Shown one piece after another: positions 8,981 through 63,974 of a stretch of 64,000 bases of DNA. The stretch lies in the NCBI RefSeq assembly GCF_048403405.1, contig NZ_CP183129.1; one strand, given 5' to 3'. The position numbers and the translations under genes were made by a program. The stretch's first letter is position 1. Every line of letters begins with the position of its first letter. Origin of the DNA: Escherichia coli. Its GTDB lineage: Bacteria > Pseudomonadota > Gammaproteobacteria > Enterobacterales > Enterobacteriaceae. The notes below the pieces were generated by a model. It had not been told where the DNA came from. It saw nothing but the letters and a program-made list of their open reading frames with translations, and did no database searches.

Positions 8981-10069
8981 TCACGGCAGGCGGTGGCGAG
9001 CTTGATAATAAGCCTGCCAGTGAGCTTCTTTATGTGTGGCGACGCGCTGTTCGAAGTAACGGCGCAGACGCGCGCGATCTTCTTCGTTATCTTTGACGAT
9101 GGTTCCGGCAATACAGTCCACCAGGTCGGCAGGCTCCCCCGCGCGATTCGCTAAAAACCAGGCGCGGACACCCACAGCATGGGCCACGTTAACGGCTTCA
9201 GCGGTGGACATAATCGCTGTCAGTGTATCCATTGACGTTTTCTTTTCGCCGTTGGCACGCAGATCGCGGAACGTGCGCACCAGTAATTCCAGTACCGCGT
9301 CAGGCACTTTATGCGGAATACCGCTATGGGCCAGCAAACGCGCCGAAGCACTGGCAACCAGTTCCAGCTCCTGGGCGAAATCCATAATCGGAAAGACAGT
9401 TTCAAAATCGAAGCGACGCTTTAGCGCAGCACTCATTTCATTGACGCCGCGATCGCGGGTATTGGCAGTGGCAATAATATTAAAGCCTTCCCGCGCATAG
9501 AGCTGACTGGCTTCACCAGTGAGTTCCGGCACCGTCATTACCCTGTCAGAAAGCATACCTAACAGACAGTCTTGTACTTCCAGCGGTGTACGCGTTATCT
9601 CTTCAAAACGGACGATTTTGCCGTCGCGCATTCCCTGGTAAAGCGGGGCAGGGACCAGCGCTTCCGTTGATGGACCATGATTGATAAGCAGAGCGTAGTT
9701 CCAGCCGTACTTGATTTGATCTTCGGTGGTAGATGCGCCGCCCTGGATGGTTAACCCGGCATCGCCGCTAATAGCGGTTGCCAGTAATTCAGACAGGAGA
9801 GATTTTGCGGTGCCAGGTTCCCCCACCAACATCAAACCGCGCCCGGTGGCAAGAGTGACTAACATACGTTCGACAGCGGAGGGACTAATCACCACTTTAC
9901 GGCTAATATTTTGCGCGCTATCGCCAAGGATAAAAGCACGGGCCGCAGGCAAACTTAACTGCCAACCGGGCGGGCAAGGTGCGTTATCATTTTGTTTTAA
10001 TTTTGCCAGTTCATCGGCGTATAACACAGCAGCAGGCGGACGCTGCAGATGATTATTCTGCGGTGACAT
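8981..10069 (-). CDS. yehL: MoxR-like AAA+ ATPase YehL
   Basis: ORF 8981..10135 trimmed to the ATG at 10069 (MSPQNNHLQ..., 362 aa). Walker A GEPGTAKS; Walker B-like IVRFEE. Confidence 0.85.
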   Translation of the reverse strand: MSPQNNHLQRPPAAVLYADELAKLKQNDNAPCPPGWQLSLPAARAFILGDSAQNISRKVVISPSAVERMLVTLATGRGLMLVGEPGTAKSLLSELLATAISGDAGLTIQGGASTTEDQIKYGWNYALLINHGPSTEALVPAPLYQGMRDGKIVRFEEITRTPLEVQDCLLGMLSDRVMTVPELTGEASQLYAREGFNIIATANTRDRGVNEMSAALKRRFDFETVFPIMDFAQELELVASASARLLAHSGIPHKVPDAVLELLVRTFRDLRANGEKKTSMDTLTAIMSTAEAVNVAHAVGVRAWFLANRAGEPADLVDCIAGTIVKDNEEDRARLRRYFEQRVATHKEAHWQAYYQARHRLP

Positions 10070-10180
10070 ATATTCATCCCTGAAATGTATTAATGAAATA
10101 AACGATATTTTACGCGCAATAAATGTTTGGCGCATTAGTTGTTTGAGCGAAAAATATCTGGAAAGCAGATCACAGTAAAT

Positions 10181-10204
10181 AAAAAAACCTGCTGGTGAGG
10201 CAGG
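10181..10204 (-). terminator. rho-independent terminator of the OrzO-like sRNA
   Basis: Hairpin cctgc-tggtgag-gcagg (10188-10204) flanked on the plus strand by aaaaaaa (10181-10187), i.e. a 7-U tract after the hairpin on the minus strand. Confidence 0.65.
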
Positions 10205-10263
10205 TTCTTTTATTTACTATTTTCAGGCCCAACACCGCAGCCTGTGCAACATCGTGTTCCAAC
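10181..10263 (-). ncRNA. orzO: OrzO-like antisense sRNA (type I antitoxin), divergent from the zorO-like toxin gene
   Basis: Minus-strand promoter TTGCAA (10293-10298), 17-nt spacer, TATAAT (10270-10275); roughly 85-nt transcript ending at the terminator. Its 5' region is the reverse complement (19/20) of a leader segment of the downstream toxin mRNA. Confidence 0.6.
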
Positions 10264-10269
10264 GAACGA

Positions 10270-10320
10270 ATTATAACCATCGGTGGACCCCGTTGCAATT
10301 AAGATAATGAGATTTATAAT
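10270..10320. promoter_or_regulatory. divergent promoters sharing one palindromic -35 hexamer
   Basis: TTGCAA at 10293-10298 is its own reverse complement. A TATAAT lies 16 nt downstream on plus (10315-10320) and another 17 nt downstream on minus (10270-10275). Confidence 0.55.
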
Positions 10321-10409
10321 CCAGACGGTTGGGACGTTGCGCCGGATCGGACCAATTTTAAGTCCTGGCTACCGGACGGGTGGTGCTGCAGGTGGTGCCC
10401 TGATCCGGA

Positions 10410-10429
10410 GTGCAACATCGTGGTCCAAC
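10410..10429 (+). promoter_or_regulatory. predicted sRNA target site in the zorO-like leader
   Basis: gtgcaacatcgtggtccaac is a direct repeat (19/20) of 10244-10263, the region transcribed on the opposite strand as the sRNA 5' end. Confidence 0.55.
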
Positions 10430-10501
10430 ATACGTAAACCAGTATCGACAGGCAGTGTAAGGGTAAGGTGCTGGTGTTGCGCTCCTTAATAAGGAGAGCG
10501 G

Positions 10502-10591
10502 ATGGACACGCTGACACAAAAGTTAACCGTGCTCATTGCCGTACTGGAGCTATTAGTGGCTCTGTTACGGTTGATTGATTTGTTGAAGTAA
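10502..10591 (+). CDS. zorO: 29-aa hydrophobic type I toxin, ZorO-like
   Basis: Not in the ORF track (below its size cut-off). ATG at 10502 with AGGAG SD at 10492-10496; peptide MDTLTQKLTVLIAVLELLVALLRLIDLLK; roughly 175-nt leader; matches my recollection of ZorO from EHEC. Confidence 0.7.
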   Translation: MDTLTQKLTVLIAVLELLVALLRLIDLLK

Positions 10592-10612
10592 TGGGCAAAT
10601 TGAAACGCATCT

Positions 10613-10636
10613 AAGGGGGAATACCGTTTCCCCCTT
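10613..10636. terminator. hairpin between convergent zorO-like gene and yehK
   Basis: aggggga (10614-10620) pairs with tccccct (10629-10635), between the two stop codons; U-tract is weak. Confidence 0.45.
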
Positions 10637-10644
10637 TAATAAAG

Positions 10645-10965
10645 CTATTTTTCTATTTCTTGGTTGAATATATTCTGTAGTTCGCGATTAAAAATGGCTA
10701 TTACCGTTTCTGGTGATTCGCCCCGTAATTTTCGCTCATCAATAAACTCATCTCTTATATAAATCAACGCATCATTTATTAGCGGGTCGACATCCTCTCG
10801 ATCACGTTGATGAAATGTTGGATGTAGCCGGAATCGCTCCAGTCGGTAGACGGAACCTGTAAATAATTCAGAGCATTTATGGATCTCAAGTCTGAAGGAA
10901 AACGGATCTTCAGGTACAGGGACCTCATAATCGTAAATAGCAACCAGCTCTTTTTGCACGATCAT
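10645..10965 (-). CDS. yehK: small conserved hypothetical protein (YehK-like)
   Basis: 106-aa ORF 60 nt downstream of yehI on the same strand; size and position match recalled yehK. Confidence 0.55.
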   Translation of the reverse strand: MIVQKELVAIYDYEVPVPEDPFSFRLEIHKCSELFTGSVYRLERFRLHPTFHQRDREDVDPLINDALIYIRDEFIDERKLRGESPETVIAIFNRELQNIFNQEIEK

Positions 10966-33226: not shown

Positions 33227-33325
33227 TTTATTAACGCGATTGTAAAACTGCGGTTTTTACTCGTTTACAACGCGTGCGCTGGACATTACCATCCTCCTCT
33301 GCGATTTATCATCGCAATCAAACGA

Positions 33326-33445
33326 CTCGGGGTGCCCTTCTGCGTGAAGGCTGAGAAATACCCGTATCACCTGATCTGGATAATGCCAGCGTAGGGAAGT
33401 CACGGACCACCAGGTCATTGCTTCTTCACGTTATGGCAGGAGCAA
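33326..33445 (+). promoter_or_regulatory. TPP riboswitch (THI element) in the thiM leader
   Basis: Conserved aptamer motifs ggggtgcccttctgcgtgaaggctgagaaatacccgtatcacctgatctggataatgccagcgtagggaa immediately upstream of the thiM SD and ATG. Confidence 0.85.
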
Positions 33446-49584: not shown

Positions 49585-49671
49585 AAAAAATAAGCCCGTG
49601 TAAGGGAGATTACACAGGCTAAGGAGGTGGTTCCTGGTACAGCTAGCATTTTATGGGTTATGTTTTTCAGC
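49585..49671 (-). ncRNA. cyaR: CyaR (RyeE) sRNA
   Basis: Minus-strand sequence matches recalled CyaR (GCUGAAAAACAUAACCCAUAAAAUGCUAGCUGUACCAGGAACCACCUCCUUAGCCUGUGUAAUCUCCCUUACACGGGCUUAUUUUUU): terminator hairpin plus U6, anti-SD-like CCUCCUUA; adjacent to yegQ. Confidence 0.8.
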
Positions 49672-49705
49672 GAAACGGATGATAACCTTAATAAATGCAG
49701 CTGTA

Positions 49706-62984: not shown

Positions 62985-63130
62985 GCTGAAACGGGAAAGC
63001 CCCTCCCGAGGAAGGGGCCTTAAATAAGGAAAGGGTCATGATGAAGCTACTCATCATCGTGGTGCTCTTAGTGATTAGCTACCCAGCATACTAAGACTAC
63101 CAGGGCGGGGGAAACCCCGCTCTACCCTCA
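62985..63130 (-). ncRNA. sibB: Sib-family antisense sRNA, copy 1 (approximate bounds)
   Basis: Candidate minus-strand promoter TTGACA (63160-63165), 17-nt spacer, TACTTT (63137-63142); transcript would cover the whole ibs ORF and SD in antisense. Ends are estimated. Confidence 0.45.
63038..63094 (+). CDS. ibsB: Ibs-family 18-aa hydrophobic toxin (IbsB-like)
   Basis: Not in the ORF track (below its size cut-off). atgatgaagctactc... encodes MMKLLIIVVLLVISYPAY; SD aaggaaaggg upstream. Confidence 0.75.
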   Translation: MMKLLIIVVLLVISYPAY

Positions 63131-63312
63131 CTCCTGAAAGTATGCCTTCACGATAAGATTGTCAATCTGCAGGCTTTGCAGTCTGCGATCCTGCCAGCAA
63201 ATATTCTTTGCGAGACGTTACGCAATAATCACACTGGAAACTATTTTATCCGCAAGTCAGCGATAGACTGCATACAGGGCGAAAGGAGGTAAGCCGACGA
63301 TTTCAGCGGGAC

Positions 63313-63458
63313 GCTGAAACGGGAAAGCCCCTCCCGAGGAAGGGGCCTTAAATAAGGAAAGGGTCATGATGAAGATACTCATCATCGTGGTGCTCTTAGT
63401 GATTAGCTACCCAGCATACTAAGACTACCAGGGCGGGGGAAACCCCGCTCTACCCTCA
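63313..63458 (-). ncRNA. Sib-family antisense sRNA, copy 2 (approximate bounds)
   Basis: Same promoter elements shifted by 328 bp (TTGACA at 63488-63493 on the minus strand). Confidence 0.45.
63366..63422 (+). CDS. Ibs-family 18-aa toxin, second IbsB-like copy
   Basis: MMKILIIVVLLVISYPAY; differs from copy 1 by L4I. Confidence 0.75.
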   Translation: MMKILIIVVLLVISYPAY

Positions 63459-63644
63459 CTCCTGAAAGTATGCCTTCACGATAAGATTGTCAATCCGCAG
63501 GCTTTGCAGTCTGCGATCCTGCCAGCAAATATTCTTTGCGAGTCGTTACGCAATAATCACAGAGGAAACTATTTTGGTCACGCGTTAGCGATAGACTGCA
63601 TTCAGGGCGAAAGGAGGTAAGCCGACGATTTCAGCGGGACGCTG

Positions 63645-63793
63645 AAACGGGAAACCCTCTCCCGGAGAAGAGGGCTTTTAATAAGGAAAGGGTTATGATG
63701 AAGCACGTCATCATACTGGAGATACTCTTAGTGATTAGCTTCCAGGCTTACTAAGAACACCAGGGGGAGGGAGAAACCTCTCCCTAACCCTCA
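63645..63793 (-). ncRNA. sibA: Sib-family antisense sRNA, copy 3 (approximate bounds)
   Basis: TTGACA at 63823-63828 on the minus strand; the -10 region has diverged (TAATTT-like); antisense to the third ibs ORF. Confidence 0.4.
63695..63754 (+). CDS. ibsA: Ibs-family 19-aa toxin (IbsA-like variant)
   Basis: MMKHVIILEILLVISFQAY; same leader context; carries a Glu in the hydrophobic core. Confidence 0.65.
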   Translation: MMKHVIILEILLVISFQAY

Positions 63794-63974
63794 CTCCTGA
63801 AATTATGTCACTCCGCCCTTAGTGTCAATCGACGGCTCTCCGTTCTTGCGAGGCGAATAGCAAAATTTTCTGCGCCGCCGGGCCTAATTCTGAAAGTTTC
63901 TTCGTTTGCTCTTATTTCATTATTGCAATCGGTATGATACCGGGCCTCAATAATTCTCTAAGAAAGGATTTCTT

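What the first reader, a model, noticed from the sequence alone, without database searches (positions are those of the whole stretch)
10181..10636. ZorO/OrzO-like type I toxin-antitoxin module between yehK and yehL
Seen in sequence: (1) a 29-codon ORF (10502-10591) encoding the hydrophobic peptide MDTLTQKLTVLIAVLELLVALLRLIDLLK, with AGGAG SD 5 nt upstream; (2) a plus-strand promoter TTGCAA-16-TATAAT (10293-10320) giving a leader of about 175 nt; (3) a divergent minus-strand promoter TTGCAA-17-TATAAT driving an RNA of about 85 nt that ends at a hairpin plus U7 terminator (10181-10204); (4) a 20-nt direct repeat (10244-10263 and 10410-10429, 19/20 identical) arranged so the minus-strand RNA 5' end is antisense to the toxin leader. 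Established knowledge: this is the architecture of ShoB-OhsC, TisB-IstR-1 and ZorO-OrzO, and the peptide matches my recollection of ZorO from enterohaemorrhagic E. coli. Inference: a strain-specific TA insertion lying between two operons of unknown function; as I recall, K-12 lacks it here.
Basis: partly seen in the sequence, partly recalled or inferred. Interest (0 to 1): 0.75.

Follow-up and report, generated by a model that had tools for sequence, protein, structure and literature searches.

The report
Known zor/orz type I toxin-antitoxin locus
This is a single, intact copy of the already described E. coli zor/orz module, in which a 29-residue membrane toxin gene is held in check by a small RNA from a divergent promoter; about two thirds of E. 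coli genomes carry it, so it is ordinary.

Summary
The 29-codon ORF (10502-10591) encodes a peptide identical to published ZorO (UniProt ZORO_ECO57). The minus-strand RNA gene (10263 to 10181) matches Rfam RF02083 OrzO-P at 101 bits, against a threshold of 60. The two divergent sigma-70 promoters share one palindromic -35 hexamer. The first 20 nt of the sRNA pair with the toxin leader 73-92 nt upstream of the ATG at 19 of 20 positions; 0 of 300 shuffles gave such a repeat. The locus lies between yehL and yehK, where Fozo et al. 2010 found it in O157:H7.

Two corrections apply. First, the RNA recognition region is of the OrzP/zorP type (V1 = ACG), not the OrzO/zorO type, although the peptide is the dominant ZorO variant. 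CFT073 has the same combination. Second, it is not a strain-specific insertion. The toxin half is in 3397 of 5426 complete E. coli genomes and orz is in 5232. K-12 keeps orz, both promoters and about 34 nt of the zor leader, so K-12 carries a deletion.

The mechanism is taken from the literature on near-identical sequence. The full-length leader is poorly translated, 5' processing exposes a standby region, and Orz pairs there, which blocks translation and triggers RNase III cleavage. Already known; low interest.

The parts
10181..10263 (-). orz small RNA gene (antitoxin), OrzP-type, about 83 nt
   Evidence: Rfam RF02083 OrzO-P, 101.3 bits (gathering threshold 60), E 3e-17, model 1-76 over 10256..10181. 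81/83 identical to the yehL-proximal (P) copy of strain 150. The start at 10263 is inferred: it lies 7 nt after the -10 and matches the published 5' end, where pairing starts at nt 1.
10181..10211 (-). Orz intrinsic terminator: 12-bp stem, 7-nt loop, U7
   Evidence: Rfam consensus structure and MFE fold. Inverted repeat I1.
10244..10263 (-). Orz 5' end (nt 1-20), the region that recognises the toxin mRNA; V1 (nt 9-11) = ACG
   Evidence: 19/20 complementary to 10410-10429 in pattern 6(1)13. Duplex -30.8 kcal/mol, against -17 to -21 for non-cognate pairs. Nt 5, 6, 9, 10 and 11 covary with the target across four locus types.
10270..10275 (-). orz promoter -10 (TATAAT)
   Evidence: Same hexamers as the published locus (PMC11264685, Table 3).
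10293..10298 (.). palindromic TTGCAA that serves as the -35 of both the zor (+) and orz (-) promoters
   Evidence: one search places both first hexamers on these six base pairs.
10315..10320 (+). zor promoter -10 (TATAAT)
10328..10501 (+). zor 5' UTR, 174 nt (start inferred)
   Evidence: There are no indels relative to the zorO/zorP leaders of strain 150. With +1 = 10328 the RBS falls at +164..+169, as published (PMC5397157). The fold has z = -3.2 and pairs nt 1-27 with the +75..+102 region.
10400..10429 (+). EAP (exposed-after-processing) region, +73..+102, containing the RBS-like GGAGUG (10406-10411) and the Orz target (10410-10429)
   Evidence: Coordinates transferred from PMC5397157. The GGAGTG motif is described in PMC11264685.
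10491..10496 (+). zor ribosome binding site AAGGAG, facing the anti-SD CTCCTT at 10483-10488
   Evidence: Sequence, inverted repeat I5, and pairing in the full-length fold.
10502..10591 (+). zor toxin ORF, 29 aa, peptide identical to ZorO
   Evidence: Identical to the ZorO peptide synthesised in PMC6669753 and to the entry named 'Small toxic protein ZorO ... ZORO_ECO57'.
10613..10636 (+). zor 3' hairpin (9 bp, 6-nt loop) followed by an interrupted U tract; probable terminator, 8 nt from the yehK stop
   Evidence: Fold. Conserved in the O and P copies. Not called by the terminator scan, because the T run is interrupted.
8981..10069 (-). flanking gene yehL (AAA ATPase), intact
   Evidence: ORF; annotation of matching genomes.
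10645..10965 (-). flanking gene yehK, 106 aa
   Evidence: ORF; annotation of matching genomes.

Best explanation
The segment is one intact copy of the E. coli zor/orz type I toxin-antitoxin locus. From a shared -35 hexamer, one promoter drives the toxin mRNA rightwards: a 174-nt leader, a 29-codon ORF and a 3' hairpin. The other promoter drives an ~83-nt sRNA (Orz, P-type) leftwards. By homology with the characterised EDL933 locus, the primary zor transcript is poorly translated. Its first ~28 nt pair with the +73..+102 region, and the Shine-Dalgarno sits in a stem. Removing the first 28 nt exposes that region (EAP, with an RBS-like GGAGUG), which acts as a ribosome standby site. The 5' end of Orz pairs with +83..+102 at 19 of 20 nt. 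This competes with ribosome loading and creates a duplex that RNase III cleaves; the process is independent of Hfq. If translated, the peptide inserts into the inner membrane, depolarises it and depletes ATP, causing growth stasis. Shown here: the sequence elements, their identity to the known family, the complementarity and its covariation, the genomic position and the distribution. Inferred from the literature on near-identical sequence: transcription starts, processing, standby translation, the RNase III step and toxicity.
For: The peptide is identical to ZorO. Rfam OrzO-P scores 101.3 bits over the full model. Promoter hexamers and spacings are those of the published locus (PMC11264685 Table 3). 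The RBS falls at +164..+169 and the EAP at +73..+102 when +1 = 10328, with no indels against the EDL933-type copies. The pairing pattern 6(1)13 exceeds the experimentally sufficient 17 nt with one internal mismatch (PMC3919570). The cognate duplex is -30.8 kcal/mol, against -17 to -21 for non-cognate pairs. Five positions of the duplex covary across four locus types. The full-length fold pairs the 5' end with the EAP and the SD with an anti-SD. The position between yehL and yehK matches Fozo 2010. Toxicity, rescue, RNase III dependence and Hfq independence are published. Membrane depolarisation and ATP loss are published.
Against: There are no expression data for this strain. The transcription starts and the delta-28 processing site are transferred by homology. 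The published rescue experiments used the O-type pair. In the papers I read, direct repression of a P-type zor leader by OrzP was not shown. It is inferred from the pairing rules and from the V1 swap and compensatory mutants. My MFE fold of the delta-28 form frees the SD by pairing the EAP with the anti-SD. Published probing says the RBS stem is unchanged, so that predicted fold should not be relied on. The physiological role of the locus at native levels is still unknown in the literature. The only reported benefit is aminoglycoside tolerance from multicopy clones, and this was seen even with a non-toxic R23L mutant.
Confidence: 0.93

Rival explanations
1. The locus is a strain-specific, horizontally acquired insertion.
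For: K-12 lacks the toxin half, and its yehL-yehK spacer is only ~0.3 kb. The published papers also describe the locus as absent from MG1655.
Against: The toxin half is present in 3397 of 5426 complete E. coli genomes and orz in 5232, always at this chromosomal site in the loci examined. K-12 keeps orz, both promoters and ~34 nt of the zor leader, which is the footprint of a deletion. Plasmid hits are few, and most are multi-megabase or several-hundred-kb records labelled as plasmids. No mobile-element genes or repeats flank the locus.
Confidence: 0.03
2. The toxin gene here is a silent passenger, and the functional product of the locus is the Orz sRNA acting on other targets. This would explain why a third of E. 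coli keep orz alone.
For: About 34% of genomes are orz-only. OrzPmg is expressed in MG1655 with conserved promoter elements (PMC11264685). The window's Orz is 81/83 identical to that sRNA.
Against: Every zor element is intact here and conserved across thousands of genomes: the promoter, the 174-nt leader without indels, the RBS, the ORF and the hairpin. The pairing region covaries with the zor target, which shows selection on the toxin-antitoxin interaction. No second site in this 64-kb window matches the Orz seed. No other target is known in the literature.
Confidence: 0.1
3. The ORF and the repeat are chance features of an intergenic region and no module exists.
For: A 29-codon ORF alone is weak evidence, and promoter-like sites are not enriched over shuffles.
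Against: The peptide is identical to an experimentally characterised toxin. The Rfam hit has E 3e-17. A 19/20 repeat was never reached in 300 shuffles. The locus is conserved at 95-100% across thousands of genomes.
Confidence: 0.01

Closest known systems
zorP/orzP, the yehL-proximal unit of the tandem zor-orz locus of E. coli O157:H7 EDL933 (Fozo 2010; Wen 2014), and the orphan OrzPmg of K-12 (Shore et al. 2024)
   Same: Same position next to yehL. The Orz RNA is 81/83 identical, the leader 170/174 identical, and the 20-nt pairing regions are identical (V1 = ACG, pattern 6(1)13). Promoter hexamers are the same.
   Different: The peptide has T3, as in ZorO, rather than the S3 of EDL933 ZorP. 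The ORF is 87/90 identical to zorP and 89/90 to zorO. The window has one unit, not two. CFT073, MMC-J-0091 and M217 have the same P-type RNA plus ZorO-peptide combination, so this is a common allele.
zorO/orzO of EDL933 (the experimentally dissected pair)
   Same: Identical 29-aa peptide, the same architecture, leader length, RBS and EAP position, and the same 3' hairpin loop.
   Different: The Orz RNA is only 64/83 identical, and the recognition region differs (GAA against ACG in V1). Published data show OrzP cannot repress zorO. The predicted cross duplex is -17 kcal/mol, against -31 for the cognate pair.
tisB/istR-1 and shoB/ohsC (divergent type I TA loci of E. coli)
   Same: A divergently transcribed sRNA whose 5' end pairs with a site far upstream of a sequestered RBS in a long toxin leader. 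The mRNA is activated by 5' processing, with a standby-site mechanism (literature).
   Different: The peptide and RNA sequences are unrelated. zor has no LexA (tisB) or CpxR (shoB) control as far as is known, and zor/orz shares one -35 hexamer between the two promoters.

Membership tests
zor/orz type I toxin-antitoxin family | 29-aa hydrophobic Zor peptide | tested here: met
   The ORF 10502-10591 is 100% identical to published ZorO and to the database entry named ZORO_ECO57.
zor/orz type I toxin-antitoxin family | Divergently encoded ~80-85-nt Orz sRNA (Rfam RF02083) | tested here: met
   101.3 bits against a gathering score of 60, full-length model, at 10256..10181 on the minus strand. It is the only such hit in the window.
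zor/orz type I toxin-antitoxin family | [quoted passage not shown] | tested here: met
   Orz nt 1-20 against 10410-10429 (73-92 nt upstream of the ATG), 19 pairs in pattern 6(1)13. The rule comes from PMC3919570.
zor/orz type I toxin-antitoxin family | 174-nt leader with a sequestered AAGGAG RBS and an EAP region carrying GGAGTG | tested here: met
   The elements are at the published offsets, with no indels against the reference copies. The fold supports 5'-end/EAP and SD/anti-SD pairing. The transcription start itself is inferred.
zor/orz type I toxin-antitoxin family | Chromosomal position in the yehI/yehK-yehL interval of E. coli/Shigella | tested here: met
   The flanking ORFs match annotated yehL and yehK. 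The position is that given in PMC2887945.
zor/orz type I toxin-antitoxin family | Toxicity of the peptide and rescue by the cognate sRNA | not testable with these tools
   Published for the identical peptide and for the O-type RNA pair. Not shown for this allele.
O-type subfamily (zorO/orzO in the strict sense) | V1 of Orz = GAA, with the matching zorO leader target | tested here: not met
   The window has V1 = ACG and the zorP-type target. It is therefore filed as P-type at the RNA level, although the peptide is the ZorO variant.

The most novel reading that the evidence does not exclude
Because the zor and orz promoters use the very same six base pairs as their -35 element (10293-10298), RNA polymerase could occupy only one at a time. 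The locus would then be a transcriptional either/or switch layered on top of the RNA-RNA control. Separately, the P-type Orz might also have a toxin-independent target, which would explain why a third of E. coli retain it alone. Neither idea is excluded by my data. I did not find either tested in the papers I read.
Probability: 0.15. Interest if true: 0.4.

Novelty: already known. Interest (0 to 1): 0.08.

Why it matters
The finding has little value as a discovery. The locus was described in 2010, dissected in 2014-2017, and surveyed across more than 2,000 genomes in 2024. It does have practical value for annotation. The module is not annotated in any RefSeq record I looked at, and it has no NCBIfam model, so raw-sequence scans will keep 'rediscovering' it. 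The refinement made here also matters for anyone planning rescue experiments, because the Orz variants do not cross-react: this copy has a P-type RNA pair with the ZorO peptide, is single-copy, and corresponds to a deletion in K-12.

Tried and rejected
- NCBIfam search of the peptide found no family. This is uninformative except to explain why the locus goes unannotated.
- Sub-threshold Rfam hits were rejected. Thr_leader (26 bits) and Trp_leader (22 bits) are driven by the terminator hairpin. A plus-strand OrzO-P hit (25 bits) is driven by the palindromic terminator.
- RNAduplex with the full-length RNAs gave -65.7 kcal/mol, but shuffled controls averaged -50. That calculation ignores intramolecular structure and is not informative. 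I used the 20-nt segments instead.
- The MFE fold of the delta-28 mRNA predicts SD release through EAP/anti-SD pairing. This conflicts with published structure probing, so I did not use it.
- I considered whether the single copy is a simple P/O chimera left by recombination between tandem units. The diagnostic sites in the ORF are mosaic rather than showing one breakpoint, and the same allele occurs in other single-copy strains. I do not claim a chimera.
- I did not scan the genome, metagenome or viral collections. The taxonomic range (E. coli, Shigella, E. fergusonii) is published, and the K-12 remnant already settles the direction of change.

Full report
**Observation**

- The ORF 10502-10591 encodes MDTLTQKLTVLIAVLELLVALLRLIDLLK.
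- AAGGAG lies at 10491-10496, with five bases between AGGAG and the ATG.
- The promoter scan finds exactly two sigma-70-like sites in 10000-10750. One is TTGCAA-16-TATAAT on the plus strand (10293-10320). The other is TTGCAA-17-TATAAT on the minus strand (10298 to 10270).
- TTGCAA is its own reverse complement, so both promoters use the same six base pairs as their -35 element.
- The scan is not enriched over shuffles (2 found, 1.7 expected). The promoters are credible because of their placement and conservation, not because of the count.
- The direct repeat 10244-10263 / 10410-10429 is 19/20 identical. In 300 shuffles of the intergenic region the best 20-mer repeat reached only 17/20. No other site in the 64-kb window matches with 4 or fewer mismatches.
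- The minus-strand RNA ends in a 12-bp hairpin followed by U7 at 10211-10181.

**Identity**

- A covariance-model search gives a full-length hit to Rfam RF02083 (OrzO-P antitoxin RNA) at 10256..10181 on the minus strand. It scores 101.3 bits against a gathering score of 60, with E 3e-17. It is the only such hit in the window.
- The peptide is identical to the ZorO peptide synthesised by Otsuka et al. (PMC6669753).
- The peptide is also identical to a database sequence that its source names 'Small toxic protein ZorO ... ZORO_ECO57'.
- Genomes that match the region at 97-100% annotate the neighbours as yehL and yehK.
- Fozo et al. 2010 described the locus (z3289/z3290) in exactly this interval of O157:H7 EDL933. 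[quoted passage not shown]
- In the window the target lies 73-92 nt upstream of the ATG.

**Which variant**

An O157-like genome (strain 150, L003) has the published tandem arrangement. One unit next to yehL encodes MDSL... (ZorP), and one unit next to yehK encodes MDTL... (ZorO). Aligning the window to both units gives:

| Region | Identical to P unit | Identical to O unit |
|---|---|---|
| Orz RNA | 81/83 | 64/83 |
| Promoter spacer | 59/64 | 47/64 |
| Leader | 170/174 | 162/174 |
| ORF | 87/90 | 89/90 |

- The 20-nt recognition sequences on both RNAs are identical to the P type, with V1 = ACG.
- The peptide is the ZorO variant, which Shore et al. 2024 report as the dominant form (72.5% of zor ORFs).
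- CFT073, MMC-J-0091, M217 and the first copy of PRO_A-1401 carry the same combination, so it is a common allele.
- This distinction matters. Wen et al. 2014 showed that OrzP does not repress zorO unless V1 is swapped.
- My duplex calculations agree: -30.8 kcal/mol for the cognate pair, against -17 to -21 for cross pairs.

**Support for the RNA-RNA interaction from comparison**

I saw four recognition types: P, O, E2348/69, and the second copy in PRO_A-1401.
- Orz positions 5, 6, 9, 10 and 11 change together with the leader, so standard pairs are kept.
- Position 7 is unpaired in three of the four types.
- The window's pattern, 6(1)13, exceeds the experimentally sufficient 17 pairs with one internal mismatch.

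**Mechanism**

The following is shown by sequence.
- With +1 at 10328 the leader is 174 nt.
- The RBS then falls at +164..+169, and the EAP region (+73..+102) falls at 10400-10429, as published (PMC5397157).
- There are no indels relative to the reference copies.
- The RBS-like GGAGTG described by Shore et al. lies at 10406-10411.
- The full-length transcript folds better than shuffles (z = -3.2). Its first ~27 nt pair with the EAP, and the SD pairs with an adjacent anti-SD.

The following is inferred from the literature on near-identical sequence.
- 5' processing (delta-28) opens the EAP, which acts as a standby site.
- Orz pairs at its 3' end. This inhibits translation and triggers RNase III-dependent decay, independently of Hfq.
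- The peptide localises to the inner membrane, depolarises it and depletes ATP.
- The native role of the locus remains unknown. Multicopy clones improve growth in aminoglycosides, even with a non-toxic R23L toxin.

**Distribution and evolutionary direction**

Counts are among 5426 complete E. coli genomes.

| State | Genomes |
|---|---|
| Match some part of the region | 5232 |
| Carry the toxin half (median two copies, up to six) | 3397 |
| orz only (difference of the two rows above) | about 34% |
| No match at all | about 3.6% |

- These figures closely reproduce the 2024 survey: 3% none, 25% one copy, 42% two copies, about 30% orz-only.
- A K-12 derivative retains the sequence up to about window position 10361. 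That includes a full-length OrzO-P hit (99.9 bits), both promoters and ~34 nt of the zor leader.
- Shore et al. showed that this orphan, OrzPmg, is expressed.
- K-12 is therefore a deletion derivative, and the window is not a strain-specific insertion.
- Matches in the plasmid collection are rare, and most are in very large records.

**Comparison and verdict**

The module is a member of the zor/orz family on every feature I could test. It belongs to the P subtype at the RNA level, carries the ZorO peptide, and is present as a single copy. It works like tisB/istR-1 and shoB/ohsC: a divergent sRNA, a long leader, activation by processing, and standby control. It is already known, and interest is low.

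The only loose ends are small.
- The shared -35 hexamer could make transcription of the two genes mutually exclusive.
- Orz nt 7 is recurrently unpaired.
- It is an open question, already raised in the literature, whether Orz has a function without its toxin.

The locus is unannotated in every RefSeq record listed and has no NCBIfam model. This explains why it looked novel from raw sequence.

Noticed in passing
window 63023-63828: A second type I toxin-antitoxin cluster. Three tandem Sib RNAs match RF00113 at 141-146 bits on the minus strand. Each lies opposite an Ibs-like 18-19-aa ORF on the plus strand: 63038-63094 MMKLLIIVVLLVISYPAY, 63366-63422 MMKILIIVVLLVISYPAY and 63695-63754 MMKHVIILEILLVISFQAY. 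From memory, K-12 has two units at this site; I did not check this.
   Followed up: partly
window 10293-10298: The zor and orz promoters share one palindromic -35 hexamer, TTGCAA. The inferred start sites are 65 bp apart, so polymerase binding at the two promoters could be mutually exclusive. I did not find this discussed in the papers I read.
   Followed up: no
window 10257 / 10423 (Orz nt 7): The single mismatch in the Orz-zor duplex falls at Orz nt 7 in three of the four recognition types compared (P, E2348/69, PRO_A-1401 copy 2). The neighbouring positions covary. This may be a selected bulge or a coincidence.
   Followed up: partly
window 10637-10660; L003 3680-3745: Just 3' of the zor hairpin the window lacks ~52 nt that are present in O157-like strain 150. 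As a result yehK ends QEIEK (106 aa) rather than QEIE (105 aa in K-12). The yehK stop lies 8 nt from the hairpin. yehK is annotated as frameshifted in CFT073 and E2348/69.
   Followed up: partly
L001 (strain M217), matching window 8981-10069 and upstream: M217 is 100% identical to the window across the intergenic region. Its yehL is annotated as frameshifted and its yehM as having an internal stop. In the window both ORFs are open. The window is therefore from a close relative, not from M217 itself.
   Followed up: no
window 49588-49673 (-) and 33318-33414 (+): A CyaR sRNA (100.7 bits) and a TPP riboswitch (71.8 bits). These are ordinary E. coli features.
   Followed up: no
window 10104-10158: A 16-nt inverted repeat, 88% complementary with a 23-nt spacer, lies between the orz terminator and the yehL start (I2). 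Orz is co-directional with yehL and ends 111 nt upstream of it. Terminator read-through into yehL is therefore conceivable.
   Followed up: no
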